Notes under the pieces: generated by a model
What the model saw: the letters and a program-made list of their open reading frames with translations, nothing else
Told to the model about the DNA's origin: nothing
Databases searched by the model: none
Virus record (IMG/VR): IMGVR_UViG_3300029248_000207
Coordinates: 1 to 12,833 of that record
Length of the DNA: 12,833 nt
Source: a virus
Lineage: Duplodnaviria; Heunggongvirae; Uroviricota; Caudoviricetes
Direction: 5' to 3' (one strand)
Program-made: the position numbers and the translations under genes
Shown: one piece after another, positions 4,861 to 12,833 of the stretch
Layout of the letters: each line of letters begins with the position of its first letter
How positions within the stretch are numbered: the first letter of the stretch is position 1

Positions 4861-5223
4861 GGGGCTGATTCTGGATTCGACGGGATTTGCGAAACCCAAG
4901 GTGCATGCCGAGGGGCGGTTGGCCTCGTAAAAAGCCGCAAAAAATAGTCGCAAACGACGAAAACTACGCTTTAGCAGCTTAATAACCTGCTTAGAGCCCT
5001 CTCTCCCTAGCCTCCGCTCTTAGGACGGGGATCAAGAGAGGTCAAACCCAAAAGAGATCGCGTGGAAGCCCTGCCTGGGGTTGAAGCGTTAAAACTTAAT
5101 CAGGCTAGTTTGTTAGTGGCGTGTCCGTCCGCAGCTGGCAAGCGAATGTAAAGACTGACTAAGCATGTAGTACCGAGGATGTAGGAATTTCGGACGCGGG
5201 TTCAACTCCCGCCAGCTCCACCA
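4861..5223 (+). ncRNA. ssrA: tmRNA (SsrA), 363 nt
   Basis: Starts GGGGCTGATTCTGGATTCGACGGG, ends GCCAGCTCCACCA. Internal tag reading frame at 4950..4982 encodes ANDENYALAA followed by a stop. tRNA-like 3' end (GGTTCAACTCCCGCC). Confidence 0.95.
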
Positions 5224-5292: not shown

Positions 5293-5335
5293 TGTCTGTC
5301 ATTGTCCGAGAACATCCGGCTAAATCCAGAGAAAA

Positions 5336-5387
5336 TTGGTACACGTTTAGGTACACGCTATACTGTGGTCCATTAAACGTGTACCAA
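5336..5387. promoter_or_regulatory. Inverted and direct repeats directly upstream of int (candidate Int/Vis binding sites or operator)
   Basis: TTGGTACACGTTT at 5336..5348 and its exact reverse complement AAACGTGTACCAA at 5375..5387 (13-bp perfect inverted repeat). GGTACACG occurs twice directly at 5338..5345 and 5350..5357. The int start codon is at 5407. Confidence 0.5.
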
Positions 5388-5406: not shown

Positions 5407-6612
5407 ATGGCGCGCATCACACGCCCCCTCACTAACAACGAGATCCTTAAAGCTAAACCCCGAGAAAAAGATTTCACTCTGCATGATGGGGACGGCCTGT
5501 TCTTACTCGTGAAAACATCTGGTAAAAAGCTCTGGCGCTTCCGATACCAACGTCCAGTAAGTAATAGCCGAACTAACCTGAGTCTCGGCTCATACCCTGC
5601 CCTTACACTCGCAGCAGCTCGTCAGATACGCGACCAATATTTGGCTACGCTCGCGCAGGGGATGGATCCGCAACAGCAACAAGAGCAAGCATCAGAGCAA
5701 CGTCAGATTGAGCTGGATAGCATTTTCTCAACTGTGGCCTCCAACTGGTTCAAAATGAAGAGCAAAAGCGTCACAGAGGACTACGCGAAGGATATTTGGC
5801 GTTCTCTAGATAAAGACGTATTCCCAGCAATAGGCGCGATACCTGTTCAGGAGATTAAGGCCAGAACGATAGTTGAAGCATTGGAACCAATCAAAGCACG
5901 CGGCGCATTAGAGACTGTTCGTCGCCTGGTCCAGCGCATTAACGAAATAATGATTTACGCAGTCAACACCGGNNNNNNNNNNNNNNNNNNNNNNNNNNNN
6001 NNATCAGGTGTTGGAATGGCATTTGAGAAACCCAAAAAGCAGAACATGCCCACGCTACGACCAGAAGAATTACCTAAGCTGATGCGTTCTCTGGTCATGT
6101 CGAATCTGTCTGTTTCGACTCGATGTCTTATTGAGTGGCAGCTCCTGACCCTAGTGCGCCCTTCTGAGGCTTCTGGTGCTCGGTGGGTCGAGATCGATCT
6201 CGATGCCAAACTCTGGACGATTCCCGCCGAACGAATGAAGGCTAAGCGTGAACACATTGTCCCTTTGTCACCTCAGGCTTTAGATATTTTGGAAGTAATG
6301 AAGCCAATCAGCGCTCATCGTGAACATATTTTCCCTAGTAGAAATGATCCAAAGCGGCCGATGAATAGTCAGACTGCTAATGCTGCTTTAAAACGTATAG
6401 GTTATGGTGGAAAATTAGTTGCACATGGTTTACGTTCAATAGCCAGTACAGCTCTCAACGAATCTAATTTTAATTCTGATGTGATTGAGTCTGCGCTGGC
6501 ACACACAGATAAGAATGAGGTTAGGAAAGCGTACAATCGGTCCATTTATTTGAAACAAAGAGTTGAGCTAATGGACTGGTGGGGTAATTTTGTTATGATT
6601 ACTAATAGATGA
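5407..6612 (+). CDS. intA: P4-family tyrosine integrase (IntA-like)
   Basis: 401-aa ORF next to ssrA; N-terminal arm-binding-type domain and C-terminal catalytic region with HGLRSIA and a terminal Tyr region (KAYNRS). A 30-nt N-run at 5973..6002 is in frame (10 unknown codons). Confidence 0.9.
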   Translation: MARITRPLTNNEILKAKPREKDFTLHDGDGLFLLVKTSGKKLWRFRYQRPVSNSRTNLSLGSYPALTLAAARQIRDQYLATLAQGMDPQQQQEQASEQRQIELDSIFSTVASNWFKMKSKSVTEDYAKDIWRSLDKDVFPAIGAIPVQEIKARTIVEALEPIKARGALETVRRLVQRINEIMIYAVNTXXXXXXXXXXXSGVGMAFEKPKKQNMPTLRPEELPKLMRSLVMSNLSVSTRCLIEWQLLTLVRPSEASGARWVEIDLDAKLWTIPAERMKAKREHIVPLSPQALDILEVMKPISAHREHIFPSRNDPKRPMNSQTANAALKRIGYGGKLVAHGLRSIASTALNESNFNSDVIESALAHTDKNEVRKAYNRSIYLKQRVELMDWWGNFVMITNR

Positions 6613-6625
6613 TAAAGGACTGCAC

Positions 6626-8068
6626 ATGAGCACAGTAAAAAATATTGATACCGTTTCATCAAACTTTAACATTTCGCCATCAATTCTTGATCAACTTGAT
6701 GTTGTTGATGTTTTATTAGAGTCAGATACGTTGCTTTTCATTGACCCTATGCTCCTCCCTGAAAGTAAGCATCCTGAAATGAAAGTGGATGCTGATAAGA
6801 AATACATAGATACTTTCACAAGTATCATTAAATTACTTAAAGCATCTAAGGTTCAGAATGATAATGATGTTGCTTGGAAGGCAGCCAAAAAGTTATTTTC
6901 ATTTTCCGAAATAGGATGGACATGTTTGGGTTATGGCTCATCAGCCAAAGGCTCAGGATTCGGGCCACACCTTGTGAACACAACAATGAATACTGCCTAT
7001 CAAATTATCAACATGGATATTGATGATCCTGACTTATTTATGGTCATGTCGTTATTTGAAGAAGGTATTGGGGCTGATAGAATTAGTGACATGACTACAA
7101 ATATAATATTTGAGTCCTTAGTGAAATTCTCAGAAAGAGTTAATCAAACCCTTCAAATCCCGACAAAAGAATTTTCTTTTAAAGGGAAAAAGTACATTGC
7201 CCCTCATAATCCATTAACAGATAAACCATTAATATTAGTTCCTAAAGATGTTGTCCGTGATTTGCCTATATCCACTGACTGGAGCGGTGCAGTCAGTACA
7301 ATGAAAGAAAACACGGACCTACGTGACAGAATTAATACCAACATTGGTAAACTGCTCGCATCAATGACCCAAAAAGAAAAAGCTGAAGCCAAGCGACGAG
7401 CTTTAGAGAAAAAAGAATATTTTGAAGACCTCCTAGAATTAATAAAAGAAGTAGAAAAAGAGCCTTACGATTTTAAAGCTGATAAGAATGGTGAATTATT
7501 TTGGTCAAGACTTGTATCTTCAATAGATAAAAAATACCCTTTCAATCTTTCTAAGTTTAATAAAAAACTAACCTTAGATGATGTAGAAAATTTGGTTGAT
7601 GAGATATTAACCCAATTCAAAGATCTAATTGAAAACAAAGGTCTATGGAAGGAAATGTGGGCAGATGATAAAAAACCAAGAAAAGAAAAAGCGGCTCAAC
7701 GTTTACTTTTTGCAGTAGCTTATTCATATTGCAAAGCCAATAACTTAGACATTAGCCCTGAGGCTGACTCTGGTAATGGACCTGTTGACTTCAAAGTCTC
7801 GCAAGGATTCGAGCAGAAAGTTTTAGTTGAAGTTAAGTTATCATCCAATGGTAAATTACTGCACGGATATGAAAAGCAATTAGAAATTTATAGAAATGGT
7901 GATGATACAGATCGAGCATTTTTCGTAATAGTTGATATCGGTCATTTAGGAGAAAAATACCAAAAGGTCCAGCAGGCTAGAATTGCAGCAGAAAATGAAG
8001 GTTTAAGAGCCTCAAAGATTATTCATATTGATGCACAACAAAAAGACTCTGCGAGCATTCGTATCTAG
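6626..8068 (+). CDS. Cargo protein of unknown function with a C-terminal PD-(D/E)xK nuclease-like domain; candidate anti-phage defence gene
   Basis: 480-aa ORF, uninterrupted and AT-rich compared with its neighbours; RBS-like aaggac upstream. C-terminal motifs: GPVDF (Asp codon at 7787..7789), VEVK (Glu at 7829..7831, Lys at 7835..7837), then QLEIY (QxxxY, as in RecB/Cas4-type nucleases). The N-terminal ~350 aa are unrecognised, with a Gly-rich patch (GYGSSAKGSGFG) and a charged coiled-coil-like stretch. It lies between int and cos/psu. Confidence 0.8.
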   Translation: MSTVKNIDTVSSNFNISPSILDQLDVVDVLLESDTLLFIDPMLLPESKHPEMKVDADKKYIDTFTSIIKLLKASKVQNDNDVAWKAAKKLFSFSEIGWTCLGYGSSAKGSGFGPHLVNTTMNTAYQIINMDIDDPDLFMVMSLFEEGIGADRISDMTTNIIFESLVKFSERVNQTLQIPTKEFSFKGKKYIAPHNPLTDKPLILVPKDVVRDLPISTDWSGAVSTMKENTDLRDRINTNIGKLLASMTQKEKAEAKRRALEKKEYFEDLLELIKEVEKEPYDFKADKNGELFWSRLVSSIDKKYPFNLSKFNKKLTLDDVENLVDEILTQFKDLIENKGLWKEMWADDKKPRKEKAAQRLLFAVAYSYCKANNLDISPEADSGNGPVDFKVSQGFEQKVLVEVKLSSNGKLLHGYEKQLEIYRNGDDTDRAFFVIVDIGHLGEKYQKVQQARIAAENEGLRASKIIHIDAQQKDSASIRI

Positions 8069-8073
8069 ATTAA

Positions 8074-8112
8074 TAAAGGCTCAACTATCACTTAGTTGAG
8101 CCTTTGTTATTT
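8074..8112 (+). terminator. Rho-independent terminator after the cargo ORF
   Basis: AAAGGCTCAACTAtcacTTAGTTGAGCCTTTgttatttt: about 13-bp stem followed by a T-rich tail, 6 nt after the stop codon. Confidence 0.7.
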
Positions 8113-8148
8113 TCTACCAGATTAATATATCTACATATGTTTGCGCGC

Positions 8149-8167
8149 AATGCTCTCCCCGCCACGC
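8149..8167. other. cos site (P2/186/P4-type 19-nt cohesive-end sequence)
   Basis: ATGCTCTCCCCGCCACGCC. From memory this is one mismatch from the reverse complement of the phage 186 cohesive end (GGCGTGGCGGGGAAAGCAT) and close to the P2/P4 one (GGCGAGGCGGGGAAAGCAC). It sits between the cargo gene and psu, where cos lies in integrated P4. Confidence 0.65.
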
Positions 8168-8340
8168 CTGCCCGCTTAAGAGGTCACTTTTAATGCAGGT
8201 GCATGAACGGCCTCAGGCCGCACCGGTACTGGTGTTGCGTGGGATAAAAAATACGGGGATTTTCATGCAAAGCCATGCACCTTATGGATGCATGGCTTTT
8301 TCGGGAAAAATAGCGGAATTTTCGGGGATTTTTTTGCGTG

Positions 8341-8911
8341 CTAGCGTGCGGCCAGTTCTGCACGTCGGCGGGTGTAAATCAGGTTCTGTGCTGGGGTGAA
8401 TTTCTGGCGATTATCATCCCGCGAAGCCGCATCAGGCCTGAATCCGATGCCCGTTAAAATATCGCTGTCCTGCGCGGAATAATTAATTTTTTCACCTGCG
8501 GCCAGCCACACCGACAGGGCTTCACGCAGATAATCAACCGAGTGCTGCATGGCGCTCTGTTTTACTGCGGGAAGCTGTTCGTTATACCCCATCAGCTCAG
8601 GTGCCAGCGTGGCGGCCAGCTCCGCGCCGTGCTGCTGCATAAAGTCATGGAGCCGGTTGCGGATGCTGATGTGCTGCACCTCCTCATGTGAGCGGATATN
8701 NNNNNNNNNCGGCGGCCTGATTAATTTCCCACTTTTTCACGTCGATATTGTCGCGCAAATCCTGCATTCTGAGCGGAATTTGTTCGTCACCGGCAAGGAG
8801 CTGTTCACGGTATTCCCGTTCAAGGTCTGCCAGTTCGGCTTTACGTTTCAGCCAGGTGTTTTTGTTCGTCTGACAGGCCTCAAAGGCCTGCTGTATGGTC
8901 ACAGTGGTCAC
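8341..8911 (-). CDS. psu: Polarity suppression protein Psu (capsid decoration / Rho antagonist), interrupted by a 10-nt N-run
   Basis: Two minus-strand ORFs (8684..8911, 75 aa; 8341..8679, 112 aa) together read like P4 Psu (MTTVTIQQAFEACQTNKN...EINQAA [gap] IRSHEEVQHISIRNRLHDFMQQHG...). GTG start at 8911, preceded by aggagag. The N-run at 8700..8709 separates the halves, which are in different frames as written. Confidence 0.8.
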
Positions 8912-8926: not shown

Positions 8927-9166
8927 TTAATGCCGGAACGGCGAGCTGTAGCAGCCCTGTACTTTACGCGGCGGCGGTGGCGTCACCGGGGCGGGGTCGG
9001 GTTTCTCCGGTGCGGCACGTATCACACCGTCAACCGACTCGATGGTGCGGAAAGTGGCCGAGCATTCGATATTGGTACACTGGTGATAACGCTGTTTGAC
9101 GTTTTCCGACAGATAACGGCTGGTACGGACGTGCGCGGTCTTTTTGCAGAACGGGCAGTGAAACAT
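8927..9166 (-). CDS. ogr: Ogr/Delta-family zinc-finger late-gene transcriptional activator (single-domain, Ogr-sized)
   Basis: 79-aa ORF MFHCPFCKKTAHVRTSRYLSENVKQRYHQCTNIECSATF...; the CxxC...CxxxxC arrangement and sequence closely resemble P2 Ogr / P4 Delta. RBS gaggg upstream; the sid stop codon (9170..9172) is 3 nt upstream of the start. Confidence 0.88.
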   Translation of the reverse strand: MFHCPFCKKTAHVRTSRYLSENVKQRYHQCTNIECSATFRTIESVDGVIRAAPEKPDPAPVTPPPPRKVQGCYSSPFRH

Positions 9167-9169
9167 GAT

Positions 9170-9913
9170 TCAGCCCTCTGCCTGTTCGTGGTCTTTTGCG
9201 GCCAGTTCAGCGGCAAGCTTCATCCGTCTGGCCGGGCTTCTTAACAGCGCCATATCAACCCCGGTTATGACCGGGCGATTCATGCCCGTTACGGACAGAA
9301 CCGGCTCCTGCTCCATATCAAAATGATACAGGGCTGACTGCAGATTCAGGGCATCACCCAGCTCGCGGGTCACGGTCGCACGCGGCGAGGTTTCTCCGCT
9401 CATTTCCAGCGACCGTATACGCAACAGAAAGGCACGTAACAGTGCGGGGCTGATACCGGTCAGCGCCTTCTTCCACTCGCTGTTGGCGTAGGTAGTGAAC
9501 GCTTTTTCATGGGCGCTGATGTAAGCCGTACCGGAGGAGCATGCGCCAAGCATGGCGAGGTTTTTGTCTTTCTCCAGCTCGGTAATCAGACCGGTAAACT
9601 CATCAGCCAGTTCGCGGCTGGCGATACGTTTACTGTGTTCAGCTTTCAGTTCAGGAGTGAGGTTGCCGCGCAGGGTTCGAAAGCGGCTGCGCCAGTCCTG
9701 TTCGGCCTGTGCACTTTCACTGAGCGCGGTCTGTCGTTCCTGCTCACAACGCTGAATGGAAGCCTCAATGTCGCTGAGTTTACCCATGCTGGCCGAGTGT
9801 GCGTCTTTTGCTTCGTTAAGTGCGGCCAGCGCACCGGCAATACGTTGTTCCGCGCCTTCATCCTGTTTACTGATAACGGTCTGCATGGCTTTGATAATGA
9901 GTTCGGGTTTCAT
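9170..9913 (-). CDS. sid: Sid-like capsid size determination (external scaffold) protein
   Basis: Minus-strand ORF in the sid position of the sid-delta-psu operon. Start chosen at the ATG giving MKPELIIKAM (247 aa, close to P4 Sid length), with ggag upstream. The in-frame ATG at 9979 (269 aa) is the alternative, but it would start only 6 bp from the activator dyad. Confidence 0.72.
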   Translation of the reverse strand: MKPELIIKAMQTVISKQDEGAEQRIAGALAALNEAKDAHSASMGKLSDIEASIQRCEQERQTALSESAQAEQDWRSRFRTLRGNLTPELKAEHSKRIASRELADEFTGLITELEKDKNLAMLGACSSGTAYISAHEKAFTTYANSEWKKALTGISPALLRAFLLRIRSLEMSGETSPRATVTRELGDALNLQSALYHFDMEQEPVLSVTGMNRPVITGVDMALLRSPARRMKLAAELAAKDHEQAEG

Positions 9914-9984
9914 GTTCAGGTTCTCCGTATGTTCAACCTGAAATGATTCTGACGCCTCCTGCACAACAACACGATTCATTGCCG

Positions 9985-10446: not shown

Positions 10447-10713
10447 ATGCACACCGCTTTTTCTTCCCCGTCTTCTGCCCCTGCCGCGCCGCTGATGCCG
10501 GTTTCTGATACCGTTCACGAGCGCTTTATCCGTCTGCCCGAAGTGATGCATCTGTGCGGCCTGTCCCGCTCGACCATTTACGACCTCATCAGCCGGGAAG
10601 CCTTCCCGAAACAAATCTCCCTCGGCGGAAAAAACGTGGCGTGGGCGCAGTCTGAAATCACTGCATGGATGGCGGATCGCATTGCCGAACGTAACCGGGG
10701 CTATGACGCATGA
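10447..10713 (+). CDS. alpA: AlpA/Vis-family phage regulatory protein (excisionase-like HTH)
   Basis: 88-aa ORF (P4 Vis is orf88); the RLPEVMHLCGLSRSTIYDLISREAFPKQISLGGKNVAWAQSEITAWMADR region resembles the AlpA/Vis winged-helix; RBS gagg 8 nt upstream. Confidence 0.85.
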   Translation: MHTAFSSPSSAPAAPLMPVSDTVHERFIRLPEVMHLCGLSRSTIYDLISREAFPKQISLGGKNVAWAQSEITAWMADRIAERNRGYDA

Positions 10714-10840
10714 TGATGGCCGCTCAGCAAAAAGCCCCTTTTTCTGGCTTGCTTCTTTTCGCCGTTTCCAGGTATAGTTTTCCCGCTGTCGCAAAATCGG
10801 CAGCCGGGCGTAGGAACCCGTGTAATTCACAGGCGACAAC

Positions 10841-10865
10841 AGACGCGCCATGCGTCTTTTTTTAC
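10841..10865 (+). terminator. Rho-independent terminator inside the immunity-like region
   Basis: AGACGCgccatGCGTCTtttttttt: 6-bp GC-rich stem plus T8, about 25 nt downstream of the first GCGTAGGAAC element. Confidence 0.55.
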
Positions 10866-10995
10866 GTCGTTGCTCAGGCACACCCATTTTTCGGGCTGTA
10901 GCCCCTGTCAGATAATGGTGGTCCGGGCGGGGCAGCTTTCGGGCTGGCCGGTATTCTGTGAAGCCGGTATTCCTACCCCCGTTCGGGTCACCACC
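10866..10995 (+). ncRNA. Candidate P4 CI-like immunity RNA region (contains the seqB-like element); ends undetermined
   Basis: No plausible ORF here. CCGGTATTCCTAC (10964..10976) is complementary to GTAGGAACTCCGG (11003..11015; 11 of 13) and partly to GCGTAGGAAC (10808..10817). CCGGTATTC is also duplicated at 10948..10956. This matches the seqA/seqB/seqC logic of P4 immunity. Confidence 0.3.
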
Positions 10996-11052
10996 CATGA
11001 GCGTAGGAACTCCGGTGGTGGCAATAACCGCTATTCACAGGAGGTTGCCATC

Positions 11053-11247: not shown

Positions 11248-11471
11248 GACACACCACCATTACCGCCCGTGACCTCGAATGTCTGGAGCATATGCGCAAC
11301 GTCGGCCAGCTCGTCGGCGACCTGATGCAGGTGCAGGACTGCGCCACCGTTCGTCGTGACCCGACGCAGCAGTTACAGCTCACCTCCGTGATTTACCTCA
11401 TGACCGCCCAGCTCGACGGCGTGGTCGAACGCTGCAATCAGCACTGGCTGACCGGGGAGAGCAACGTATGA
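11244..11471 (+). CDS. Hypothetical small protein (position corresponds to the epsilon/anti-repressor region of P4-like elements)
   Basis: 75-aa ORF translationally coupled at both ends (ATGA overlaps at 11244 and 11468); no recognisable motif. Confidence 0.5.
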
Positions 11472-11788
11472 AAAAGCCATTACCGCCCGTATTACGCGCC
11501 GCGCTGTATCGTCGCGCCGTGGCCTGTGCATGGCTGACCCTGTGCGAACGCCAGCACCGCTACCCGCACCTCACCCTCGACGCGCTGGAAAGCGCCATTG
11601 CGACCGAGCTGGAGGGCTTCTATCTGCGCCAGCATGGCGAGGAAAAAGGCCGTCAGATTGCCTGTGCCCTGCTTGAAGATTTAATGGAAGCCGGACCACT
11701 CAAAGCCGCCCCGTCGCTGTCCTTTCTCGGGCTGGCCGTGATGGATGAGCTTTGCGCCCGTCATATCACCGCACCGGTACTGCACTGA
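11468..11788 (+). CDS. Hypothetical protein, 106 aa, immediately upstream of the primase
   Basis: ORF coupled to the upstream gene and ending 14 nt before the primase start; P4 has an orf106 in the equivalent position, but I cannot confirm sequence similarity. Confidence 0.5.
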
Positions 11789-11802: not shown

Positions 11803-12833
11803 ATGAAAATGAACGTAACAGAAACGGTAAAACAGGCGTGCGGCCACTGGCCGCGCATTCTCCCTGCGCTGGGTGTGAAGGTGATTAAAAACCGCCATCA
11901 GTCCTGCCCGGTGTGCGGTGGCTCTGACCGCTTCCGCTTTGACGATAAAGAGGGGCGCGGGACGTGGTTCTGTAACCAGTGCGGCGCGGGTGACGGACTT
12001 AAGCTGGTAGAAAAAGTGTTTGGCGTGACCCCGTCTGAGGCCGCCGGGAAGGTGAATGCCGTGACCGGCAACCTGCCGCCGGTTGCCCCGGAAGTGATTG
12101 CGGTCGCAGAGGCTGAAACGGAGGCCGACCGCAAAGCGGCGGCCGCGCTGGCCGTCAGGCTCATGGAGAAAACCCGACCGGCCACCGGCAATGCCTACCT
12201 CACCTGCAAGGGTTTCCCCGCTCTGGAATGTCTGACGCTCACCGCCATGCATAAAACCGGCGGCGTGACGTTCCGCGCCGGGGATGTGGTTGTCCCGCTG
12301 TATGACGATACCGGCGTACTGGTTAACCTTCAGCTTATCAATGCAGACGGTCTCAAACGCACCCTGAAAGGCGGTCAGGTCAAAGGGACATGTCATATCA
12401 TCGAAGGGAAAAAACAGGCCGGAAAACGCCTGTGGATTGCGGAGGGTTATGCGACCGCGCTCACCGTGCATCACCTGACCGGGGAAACCGTCATGGTGGC
12501 GCTGTCCTCAGTAAACCTCCTTTCTCTGGCGAGCCTTGCCCGTCAGAAGTCCCCGGCCTGTCAGATAGTGCTTGCCGCCGACCGTGACCTGAACGGCGAT
12601 GGCCAGAACAAAGCCACAGCGGCCGCAGACGCCTGTGAGGGCGTTGTTGCCCTGCCACCGGTATTCGGTGACTGGAATGATGCGTTTATACAGTACGGCG
12701 AGGAAGCCACGCGGAAAGCGATTTATGACGCTATCCGGCCACCGGCGCAAAGTCCGTTTGATACCATGAGCGAAGCCGAATTTACCGCCATGAGCGCCAG
12801 CGACAAGGCCTTGCGGGTGCATGAGCATTACGG
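11803..12833 (+). CDS. P4 alpha-like primase(-helicase), N-terminal part; continues past the window end
   Basis: Open frame from the ATG at 11803 (RBS gggag upstream) to the window end; it is absent from the ORF track because it has no stop in the window. Zinc-binding motif CPVCGGSDRFRF...WFCNQCG and a TOPRIM-like region (WIAEGYATALTV..., VLAADRDLNGDG). Confidence 0.85.
   Translation, partial: MKMNVTETVKQACGHWPRILPALGVKVIKNRHQSCPVCGGSDRFRFDDKEGRGTWFCNQCGAGDGLKLVEKVFGVTPSEAAGKVNAVTGNLPPVAPEVIAVAEAETEADRKAAAALAVRLMEKTRPATGNAYLTCKGFPALECLTLTAMHKTGGVTFRAGDVVVPLYDDTGVLVNLQLINADGLKRTLKGGQVKGTCHIIEGKKQAGKRLWIAEGYATALTVHHLTGETVMVALSSVNLLSLASLARQKSPACQIVLAADRDLNGDGQNKATAAADACEGVVALPPVFGDWNDAFIQYGEEATRKAIYDAIRPPAQSPFDTMSEAEFTAMSASDKALRVHEHY

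What the first reader, a model, noticed from the sequence alone, without database searches (positions are those of the whole stretch)
8149..8167. Near-consensus P2/186-type cos site between the cargo gene and psu
ATGCTCTCCCCGCCACGCC is, from memory, one mismatch from the reverse complement of the phage 186 cohesive end and close to the P2/P4 one. Its presence implies the element can be packaged by a helper terminase, so the cargo gene would be mobilised with the satellite. The single difference might reflect helper specificity.
Basis: partly seen in the sequence, partly recalled or inferred. Interest (0 to 1): 0.45.

Follow-up and report, generated by a model that had tools for sequence, protein, structure and literature searches.

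The report
Packaging (cos) site of P4-like satellite
The 19-base motif is the ordinary DNA-packaging (cos) site of a P4-type phage satellite lying next to the E. coli ssrA gene, and its "one-base difference" from phage 186 is the commonest version of this site among such satellites, so the finding is correct but already known.

Summary
The quoted string is present, one base to the right of the stated coordinates (8150-8168). Its reverse complement, GGCGTGGCGGGGAGAGCAT, has 1 mismatch to the annotated phage 186 cohesive end and 3 mismatches to the P2/P4 end.

It is not a chance match. The conserved cos flanks are also present: TGCGCGC on the cargo side and about 112 nt on the psu side. The window agrees with 94 of 95 positions that are at least 90% conserved in 73 other satellite cos regions.

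The site sits where P4 has its cos, downstream of psu. The element is a P4-like satellite with attL, int, a 480-aa cargo gene, cos, psu, delta, sid, alpA, the immunity RNAs and alpha. It is integrated just downstream of ssrA.

The helper-specificity idea is not supported:
- The exact 19-mer is the most frequent allele in a psu-anchored sample of satellites (48 of 80), across several genera.
- It also occurs in 18-19 P2-like phage contigs.
- G at position 14 is rare in phages (0 of 59 in an allele-blind sample).

The cos-adjacent cargo hotspot was described by Rousset et al. 2022. Packaging itself was not tested. Verdict: a real feature of an ordinary, known kind, with low interest.

The parts
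8150..8168 (-). cos core: the 19-nt cohesive-end sequence, GGCGTGGCGGGGAGAGCAT on the - strand. Predicted staggered nicks lie between 8169|8168 on the - strand and 8149|8150 on the + strand, giving 5' overhangs.
   Evidence: Exact string. 1 mismatch to the annotated 186 cos and 3 to P2/P4. Chance expectation 0.01. The identical 19-mer occurs in 108 IMG/VR contigs. The nick positions are inferred from the 186 record's annotation, 'top strand cut at 5' end and bottom strand cut at 3' end'.
8143..8149 (-). Conserved left flank of cos (TGCGCGC on the - strand). It is the last conserved bases before the variable cargo region.
   Evidence: Conserved in P2, 186 and the window; P4 has CGCGCGC. At least 90% conserved in satellites and phages. 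E. coli satellites with other cargo start their homology at query base 2894, which is window 8143.
8169..8281 (-). Conserved right flank of cos on the psu side. It holds AAGCGGGCA next to the core, CTGCATTAAAA, TGCA, CTGAG, a CCAG..GGNGCGG block and GGTGCATGGCTTTGCATG. It is the presumed terminase recognition region.
   Evidence: Aligns with the right ends of P4, 186 and P2. The window matches 94 of 95 positions that are at least 90% conserved among 73 unique satellite cos regions spanning -140 to +40. The same blocks are seen in P2-like phages. The terminase-binding role is inferred.
8269..8299 (-). Perfect 11-nt inverted repeat (AAAGCCATGCA / TGCATGGCTTT) downstream of psu. It is a likely psu terminator hairpin that overlaps the distal cos block.
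   Evidence: The sequence is conserved among satellites.
8071..8109 (+). Terminator-like hairpin that ends the cargo gene, 34 nt from the conserved cos block.
6626..8068 (+). Cargo ORF of 480 aa in the int-cos hotspot. It is a candidate defence gene, and it would lie at the left end of the packaged linear genome.
   Evidence: ORF. N-terminal match to PADLOC candidate PDC-M36A, E = 9.6e-14. No Pfam family. Related E. coli satellites carry Drt3, retron St85, AAA ATPase/DUF4435 or helicase/nuclease genes at this position. The gene is rare, in 13 of 5426 E. coli genomes.
5407..6612 (+). Tyrosine integrase, interrupted by an N run at 5973-6002.
   Evidence: Pfam Phage_integrase, Arm-DNA-bind_3 and Phage_int_M. 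35% identity to P4 Int.
5334..5356 (+). attL: a 23-nt direct repeat (AATTGGTACACGTTTAGGTACAC), 111 nt downstream of ssrA.
   Evidence: The second copy lies 9748 bp away, beyond alpha, in the 99.6%-identical E. coli KMi029 element. The right end lies outside the window.
8341..8911 (-). psu (polarity suppression / capsid decoration), broken in the window only by the N run at 8700-8709.
   Evidence: Both halves match Pfam Psu, 1.2e-53 and 3.5e-22. 72% identity to P4 Psu. An intact 567-nt CDS is annotated in KMi029.
8927..9166 (-). delta-like Ogr/Delta zinc-finger late-gene activator.
   Evidence: Pfam Ogr_Delta, 8.7e-21.
9170..9979 (-). sid-like capsid size determination gene.
   Evidence: tblastn 31% identity to P4 Sid, in the P4 position between delta and the regulatory region. 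No Pfam hit.
10447..10713 (+). alpA-like regulator (homologue of P4 ORF88).
   Evidence: Pfam Phage_AlpA, 3e-20.
10785..10998 (+). isrK (10785-10862) and C4-type antisense RNA (10911-10998), the P4-type immunity RNA region.
   Evidence: Rfam RF01394 at 74.6 bits and RF01695 at 78.3 bits, both above gathering score.
11803..12833 (+). alpha primase-helicase, with its N-terminal part cut by the end of the window.
   Evidence: 81% identity to P4 alpha. Pfam Zn_Ribbon_Prim and Toprim_3.

Best explanation
Window 8143-8281 is the cos packaging site of an integrated P4-like phage satellite, about 9.75 kb from attL to attR in a near-identical copy. The proposed sequence of events is as follows. (1) A P2-like helper phage expresses its late genes, either because it infects the cell or because the satellite derepresses and transactivates it. 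(2) The excised, replicated satellite circle is recognised by the helper terminase (P2 gpM/gpP homologues) through the roughly 112-nt conserved block on the psu side. (3) The terminase nicks 19 nt apart at 8169|8168 on the - strand and 8149|8150 on the + strand. (4) This yields a linear genome with 5' GGCGTGGCGGGGAGAGCAT cohesive ends, which is packaged into small, Sid-redirected helper capsids. In that linear genome the cargo gene lies at the extreme left end, only 7 conserved nucleotides from the cut. Any gene placed there is transduced with the satellite. The three variable core positions (5, 14, 19) are natural polymorphisms. The window carries T5/G14/T19, the commonest satellite allele. 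What is shown: the sequence, its homology, its position and the population data. What is inferred: terminase binding, cleavage and packaging.
For: - The core matches the annotated 186, P2 and P4 cohesive ends.
- The flanks align with all three phages. BLAST finds the P4 right end (11459-11623) abutting the core, and about 64-nt cos matches in some 50 P2-like phages.
- The window matches 94 of 95 highly conserved satellite cos positions.
- Every one of 80 psu-anchored loci with enough flanking DNA has such a core within 500 nt downstream of psu.
- The identical 19-mer occurs in 108 IMG/VR contigs: 86 next to psu and 18 next to a P2-type portal gene.
- The element has int, psu, delta, sid, alpA, isrK/C4 and alpha. 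The copy in E. coli KMi029 (99.6% identity) has all of these annotated as intact and is bounded by 23-nt direct repeats 9748 bp apart.
- Literature: P2 and P4 share a core cos signal, and the satellite defence hotspot lies directly next to it (PMC9122126). The cos homology is about 55 bp, and longer flanks improve transduction (PMC9594776). P4 cos plasmids of 5-10 kb are packaged (PMC2231350).
Against: - No experimental evidence for this element: cleavage, ends and transduction are all untested.
- No helper prophage can be seen in the window.
- psu and int are interrupted by N runs in the window, so their integrity rests on the KMi029 copy.
- The window deviates from the satellite consensus at one highly conserved position (-95, A for C) and at several moderately conserved ones around -17 to -10.
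- At 9.75 kb the element is shorter than P4 (11.6 kb), and I did not establish the lower size limit for efficient packaging.
Confidence: 0.9

Rival explanations
1. The motif is a vestigial cos in a decayed, no longer mobilisable cryptic element. The sequence is recognisably cos but no longer works, for example because of the G14 or flank changes or because the element is too short or defective.
For: Many ssrA-linked P4-type elements in E. coli are cryptic (general knowledge; CP4-57 is the classic case). A related strain, MB06172, has this same cargo next to a cos core split by a 2.7-kb insertion, which shows that decay happens at this locus. The window's int and psu cannot be read through because of N runs.
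Against: The window matches 94 of 95 conserved cos positions. G14 is the majority state in satellites and so is not a defect. All core genes are annotated as intact in the 99.6%-identical KMi029 copy. Both att repeats are perfect.
Confidence: 0.07
2. The A14-to-G difference is an adaptive helper-specificity determinant. On this view the satellite can be packaged only, or much better, by the minority of P2-like phages that share GGCGTGGCGGGGAGAGCAT.
For: 18-19 P2-like phage contigs carry exactly this core, so matched helpers exist. There are four anecdotal same-genome matches: a satellite with the otherwise rare 186 allele beside a 186-like prophage with the same allele; P4 beside P2 with the same allele; and two pairs of co-resident satellites that share an allele.
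Against: The allele is the commonest in satellites of several genera and Psu lineages, yet it was absent from 59 phages (73 with further loci) in an allele-blind sample. The variable positions lie inside the overhang, whereas the long conserved block that could confer recognition is shared by satellites and phages whatever the allele. The P4 and 186 cores differ at 2 positions, and from memory (Sauer et al. 1982) 186 still helps P4. The same-genome pairs are few and were found through allele-defined sampling.
Confidence: 0.08
3. Chance occurrence of a GC-rich 19-mer with no relation to cos.
For: None beyond the fact that the core is short.
Against: Shuffles give an expectation of 0.01 sites even with 3 mismatches allowed. 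About 120 nt of flanking sequence is homologous to P4, P2 and 186 cos. The site has the canonical position downstream of psu.
Confidence: 0.005

Closest known systems
cos site of satellite phage P4 (X51522 / NC_001609: junction of bases 11624 and 1)
   Same: Same position: downstream of psu, with the non-essential or cargo genes and int on the other side. Same 19-nt core architecture. Same conserved right-flank blocks (CTGCATTAAAA, AAGCGGGC, GCATGGCTTTGCATG). About 73% identity over the 164 nt between psu and the core.
   Different: The core differs at 3 positions (T5, G14, T19 against A5, A14, C19) and at +1 (T against C). P4 has gop/beta/cII where this element has a single 480-aa gene. This element integrates downstream of ssrA with a different integrase (35% identity to P4 Int).
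cos of Escherichia phage 186 (NC_001317, bases 1-19, annotated cohesive end)
   Same: 18 of 19 core positions are identical. The TGCGCGC left flank, the AAG.GGGCA right flank and CTGCATTAAAA are shared.
   Different: G against A at position 14. Beyond about +7 and -45 there is no similarity apart from the GCAT...TTTGCATG block. In 186 the left flank leads into the portal gene W, not into a cargo gene.
[quoted passage not shown] 2022, PMC9122126)
   Same: The arrangement 'variable defence cargo directly next to cos, between psu and int' is the one described there. Related E. coli satellites carry Drt3, retron St85 and other systems at the same slot, with homology resuming at window 8143.
   Different: 3 core mismatches to P2. 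This particular cargo gene is not in PADLOC as a complete known system (only an N-terminal hit to a candidate) and has no relative in the phage collection.

Membership tests
P2/186/P4-type (Peduoviridae) cos site | 19-nt GC-rich core of the form GGCGNGGCGGGGANAGCAN | tested here: met
   Exact fit at 8150-8168 on the - strand; 1 mismatch to 186 and 3 to P2/P4.
P2/186/P4-type (Peduoviridae) cos site | Conserved flanking sequence shared by helper and satellite (the ~55-bp homology of Ziermann & Calendar 1990, as cited in PMC9594776, plus distal blocks) | tested here: met
   Alignment with P2, 186 and P4. Consensus of 99 satellite and 187 phage regions. 94 of 95 conserved positions matched.
P2/186/P4-type (Peduoviridae) cos site | Cleavage by P2-family terminase to give 19-nt 5' cohesive ends, and packaging of the DNA | not testable with these tools
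   Needs particle DNA end mapping or a cosmid transduction assay.
P2/186/P4-type (Peduoviridae) cos site | The same core occurs in bona fide P2-like phages that could act as helpers | tested here: met
   18-19 IMG/VR contigs have the identical 19-mer next to P2 Q/P (portal/terminase) homologues.
P4-like satellite (core components as in de Sousa & Rocha, PMC8628076) | Integrase, psu, delta, sid, alpA and alpha in the conserved order | tested here: met
   int, psu, Ogr_Delta, AlpA and primase domains. Psu 72%, Sid 31% and alpha 81% identity to P4. Order int-cargo-cos-psu-delta-sid-alpA-...-alpha. psu and int are interrupted by N runs in the window, and alpha is cut by the window end.
P4-like satellite (core components as in de Sousa & Rocha, PMC8628076) | epsilon (Ash) helper-derepression gene | tested here: inconclusive
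   Not searched for specifically. KMi029 annotates an 'Icd-like' CDS, a 75-aa ORF and DUF5375 between alpA and alpha. The 75-aa and DUF5375 (cnr-like) families are the ones PMC8628076 describes between epsilon and alpha.
P4-like satellite (core components as in de Sousa & Rocha, PMC8628076) | cos located between psu and the integrase-side hotspot | tested here: met
   PMC9122126.
P4-like satellite (core components as in de Sousa & Rocha, PMC8628076) | Defined ends (att repeats) and a size compatible with a small P4-type capsid | tested here: inconclusive
   attL at 5334-5356. attR was seen only in the KMi029 copy, 9748 bp away. P4 is 11,624 bp. The size limits were not verified here.

The most novel reading that the evidence does not exclude
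G at core position 14 may be a satellite-associated cos state and not a neutral variant. It occurs in about 75% of sampled P4-like satellites but in roughly 1% of P2-like phages. Two functions are conceivable: it could bias the helper terminase toward the satellite, or it could keep satellite and helper cohesive ends from annealing perfectly with each other. Separately, the core may be the actual breakpoint at which cargo modules are swapped. In three P4-identical satellites, the T5/G14/T19 core and a new cargo replace the P4 core and gop/beta/cII, starting within the core. In MB06172 the core is split by an insertion. There are also hints that cos alleles agree within a genome.
Probability: 0.12. 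Interest if true: 0.5.

Novelty: already known. Interest (0 to 1): 0.12.

Why it matters
The site explains how the whole element, including its rare 480-aa candidate defence gene, could be moved between enterobacteria in helper-phage capsids. That matters for annotation: cos is not annotated in the RefSeq copy. It also matters for deciding whether the cargo gene is part of a mobile defence hotspot. It adds no new biology, because cos next to the psu-int hotspot of P4-like satellites is published (PMC9122126, PMC8628076). The one by-product that might deserve follow-up is the skewed distribution of the position-14 allele between satellites and helper phages, together with the signs that recombination breakpoints fall inside the cos core.

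Tried and rejected
- **Genome-contig scan.** A scan with P4 Psu returned only 6 loci, too few for statistics on their own. They served only to show the allele in other genera.
- **First allele tabulations.** Searches used a flank-motif filter (CATTAAAA) that made part of the conservation circular and dropped loci. I replaced them with a position-defined search downstream of psu.
- **Allele-specific scans.** The allele-blind pattern requires TGCGCGC after the core, so it misses P4-proper (CGCGCGC) and undercounts satellites with the P2 allele.
- **Helper/satellite allele matching within a genome.** Only four pairs that include a satellite could be recovered from contig names. Sampling was allele-defined, so I treat this as anecdote.
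- **Helper prophage in KMi029.** I could not determine whether the KMi029 host has a P2-like prophage, or what its cos allele is, with the tools available.
- **Primary literature.** Ziermann & Calendar 1990, Lindqvist et al. 1993 and Christie & Dokland 2012 are not held in the library. Statements about minimal cos and about 186 helping P4 rest on secondary citation (PMC9594776, PMC9122126) or on memory, and are marked as such.
- **Cargo protein.** Pfam and NCBIfam gave no family apart from a far sub-threshold EruA C-terminal hit. I ran no further search on it, because it is not the finding under review.
- **Chance match.** Considered and rejected.

Full report
**Observation**

The quoted 19-mer ATGCTCTCCCCGCCACGCC is in the window at 8150-8168. 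The stated range, 8149-8167, is one base too far left. Its reverse complement is GGCGTGGCGGGGAGAGCAT.

I fetched the three reference genomes:
- The 186 record annotates bases 1-19, GGCGTGGCGGGGAAAGCAT, as the cohesive end.
- P2 annotates cosL 1-19 as GGCGAGGCGGGGAAAGCAC.
- P4 begins with the same 19 bases as P2.

The window is therefore 1 mismatch from 186 (A14 to G) and 3 from P2/P4 (positions 5, 14, 19). A match within 3 mismatches is expected 0.01 times in shuffles of the window.

**Surroundings**

The left part of the window is E. coli chromosome: nadK, recN, bamE, yfjF, ratA, smpB and the tmRNA gene at 4861-5223. Downstream of ssrA lies a P4-like satellite with these parts:
- a 23-nt att repeat at 5334-5356;
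- a tyrosine integrase at 5407-6612;
- a 480-aa ORF at 6626-8068, with its terminator hairpin at 8071-8109;
- the cos region;
- psu at 8341-8911 (- strand), an Ogr/Delta-type activator at 8927-9166 (-), and a Sid homologue at 9170-9979 (-);
- alpA at 10447-10713;
- isrK and C4-type RNAs at 10785-10998;
- a 75-aa ORF and DUF5375;
- the start of the alpha primase-helicase, from 11803 to the window end.

int and psu are each interrupted by an N run (5973-6002 and 8700-8709). In E. coli KMi029 the whole element is present at 99.6% identity. There all genes are annotated as intact, and the second att copy lies 9748 bp from the first. The N runs are not length-preserving: psu is 567 nt in KMi029 and 571 nt in the window.

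**Is it cos?**

BLAST of 8050-8350 against the phage collection gave two kinds of hit:
- the right end of P4 (11459-11623, on the psu side), ending exactly next to the 19-mer;
- about 64-nt matches (window 8143-8206) in roughly 50 P2-like phages.

I aligned circularised cos junctions of P4, 186 and P2 with the window. The shared features are the core, TGCGCGC on one side, and on the other side AAG.GGGC., CTGCATTAAAA and a distal GCAT...TTTGCATG block about 110 nt away.

I then collected satellites by their psu gene, independently of cos. All 80 loci with at least 230 nt after psu have such a core within 500 nt downstream. The window matches 94 of the 95 positions that are at least 90% conserved among the 73 unique regions.

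Conservation is strongly asymmetric. About 112 nt is conserved on the psu side (8169-8281). Only 7 nt is conserved on the cargo side (8143-8149), and beyond that satellites share nothing. E. coli satellites with different cargo (Drt3, retron St85, AAA ATPase/DUF4435, helicase/nuclease) resume homology with the window at 8143.

This is the arrangement published by Rousset et al. 2022 (PMC9122126): a defence hotspot between psu and int, directly adjacent to the cos signal that P4 shares with P2. De Sousa & Rocha (PMC8628076) note it as well.

**Mechanism**

Mechanism inferred from the P2/P4 paradigm:
1. The excised, replicated satellite circle is recognised by the helper terminase, most plausibly through the long conserved psu-side block.
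2. The terminase nicks 19 nt apart. The 186 record states that the top strand is cut at the 5' end of the 19-mer and the bottom strand at its 3' end. In the window that corresponds to 8169|8168 on the - strand and 8149|8150 on the + strand.
3. The linear genome starts with the core, then 7 conserved bases, then the cargo gene and int. It ends with sid, delta, psu and the conserved flank. This matches P4, where gop/beta/cII occupy the cargo position.
4. The cargo is therefore carried along by construction.

None of the biochemical steps was or could be tested here.

**The single difference**

The exact 19-mer occurs in 108 IMG/VR contigs in a complete scan. Of these, 86 have psu within 1.5 kb, 18 have a P2-type portal within 2.5 kb, and 4 are unclassified. 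The first 120 hits for the other two alleles split differently:

| Allele | Phage | Satellite |
|---|---|---|
| 186 allele | 101 | 2 |
| P2/P4 allele | 91 | 20 |

In the psu-anchored sample the alleles were as follows:

| Core | Loci (of 80) |
|---|---|
| Window allele GGCGTGGCGGGGAGAGCAT | 48 |
| P2 allele | 13 |
| GGCGGGGCGGGGAGAGCAT | 11 |
| 186 allele | 3 |
| Four other variants | 5 |

G14 accounts for 60 of the 80. The window allele is present in two Psu identity classes, and in Enterobacter, Tatumella, Citrobacter and Kluyvera genomes. That sample is biased toward window-like Psu. Measured against all 221 psu-bearing stretches found in IMG/VR, the 86 satellites with this allele are about 39%.

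In an allele-blind scan (GGCGNGGCGGGGANAGCANTGCGCGC, first 80 rows), 7 of 11 satellites had G14. None of 59 phages did; the phages were A14 (35) or T14 (24). Fisher's exact test gives p = 3e-7.

The variant is therefore the normal satellite state and is rare in potential helpers. That is the opposite of what strict allele matching would predict. The 186 core differs from the P4 core at two positions, and to my recollection 186 still helps P4 (Sauer et al. 1982). I could not retrieve that paper.

**Rival explanations**

- Chance is excluded.
- A vestigial cos in a decayed element is possible but unlikely, given the conservation and the intact KMi029 copy. A related strain, MB06172, does show decay at this locus.
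- Helper specificity of G14 remains a low-probability possibility. It is kept alive only by the existence of 18-19 G14 phages and by four anecdotal same-genome allele matches.

**By-products**

Three satellites that are 98-100% identical to P4 in psu, delta, sid and alpha are identical to P4 up to the core. They then switch to T5/G14/T19 and a wholly different cargo. In MB06172 the core is split by a 2.7-kb insertion that contains a portal pseudogene. Both observations fit the published speculation that cohesive ends seed cargo exchange (PMC9122126). The numbers are small.

**Verdict**

The feature is a genuine P4-type cos site of a known kind, carrying its most common allele. The helper-specificity reading is not supported. 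Novelty: already known. Interest: low.

Noticed in passing
L008, L053, L058 versus L001 (P4), cos region -200..+120: Satellites 98-100% identical to P4 in psu, delta, sid and alpha are identical to P4 on the psu side up to the core. They then carry T5/G14/T19 (and T at +1) and an unrelated cargo. The core allele therefore travels with the cargo side, which suggests recombination breakpoints inside cos.
   Followed up: partly
L493 (E. coli MB06172) 4940-5110 and 7833-7851: This strain has the same ssrA locus, with int and an 88%-identical cargo homologue. Only the left 11 nt of the core (ATGCTCTCCCC) follows the cargo. Next come a truncated P2-type portal pseudogene and DUF3226/AAA-ATPase genes. 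The rest of cos (..AAGCGGGCA GGCGTGGCGGGG) lies 2.7 kb further on, so the cos core is split by an insertion.
   Followed up: partly
window 6626-8068: The cargo ORF (480 aa) has no Pfam family. It has an N-terminal hit to PADLOC candidate PDC-M36A (9.6e-14) and what looks by eye like a PD-(D/E)xK nuclease motif near the C-terminus (not tested). It is rare, in 13 of 5426 complete E. coli genomes, and some RefSeq records call it 'DUF8370 family'. It has no relative in the phage collection. In strain 4012 an 81% homologue sits next to relaxase/mobilisation genes, not in a satellite.
   Followed up: partly
IMG/VR loci L161+L210, L272+L244, L250+L389, L006+L045: Elements from the same isolate genome share their cos allele: a satellite with the otherwise rare 186 allele beside a 186-like prophage, P4 beside P2, and two pairs of satellites. 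A pair of phages, L124/L294, does not share its allele. The pairs are too few, and too dependent on how the loci were sampled, to draw a conclusion.
   Followed up: partly
window 5973-6002 and 8700-8709: Two N runs fall inside int and psu and are not length-preserving. int is 1197 nt and psu 567 nt in KMi029, against 1206 and 571 nt in the window. The apparent frameshift in psu is therefore an artefact of the mask or gap.
   Followed up: yes
window 5334-5356; L438 6085-6107 and 15833-15855: The att repeat is a 23-mer located 111 nt downstream of ssrA, after a hairpin that looks by eye like the ssrA terminator. It is not the 3' end of ssrA itself, which is the site I recall CP4-57 using (from memory). 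In KMi029 a second small variable slot between alpha and attR holds crr-like 114-nt repeats and a DUF6998 gene.
   Followed up: partly
window 10785-10998: Rfam isrK and C4 antisense RNA matches lie side by side between alpA and the epsilon-side genes. This is the P4-type RNA immunity region.
   Followed up: no
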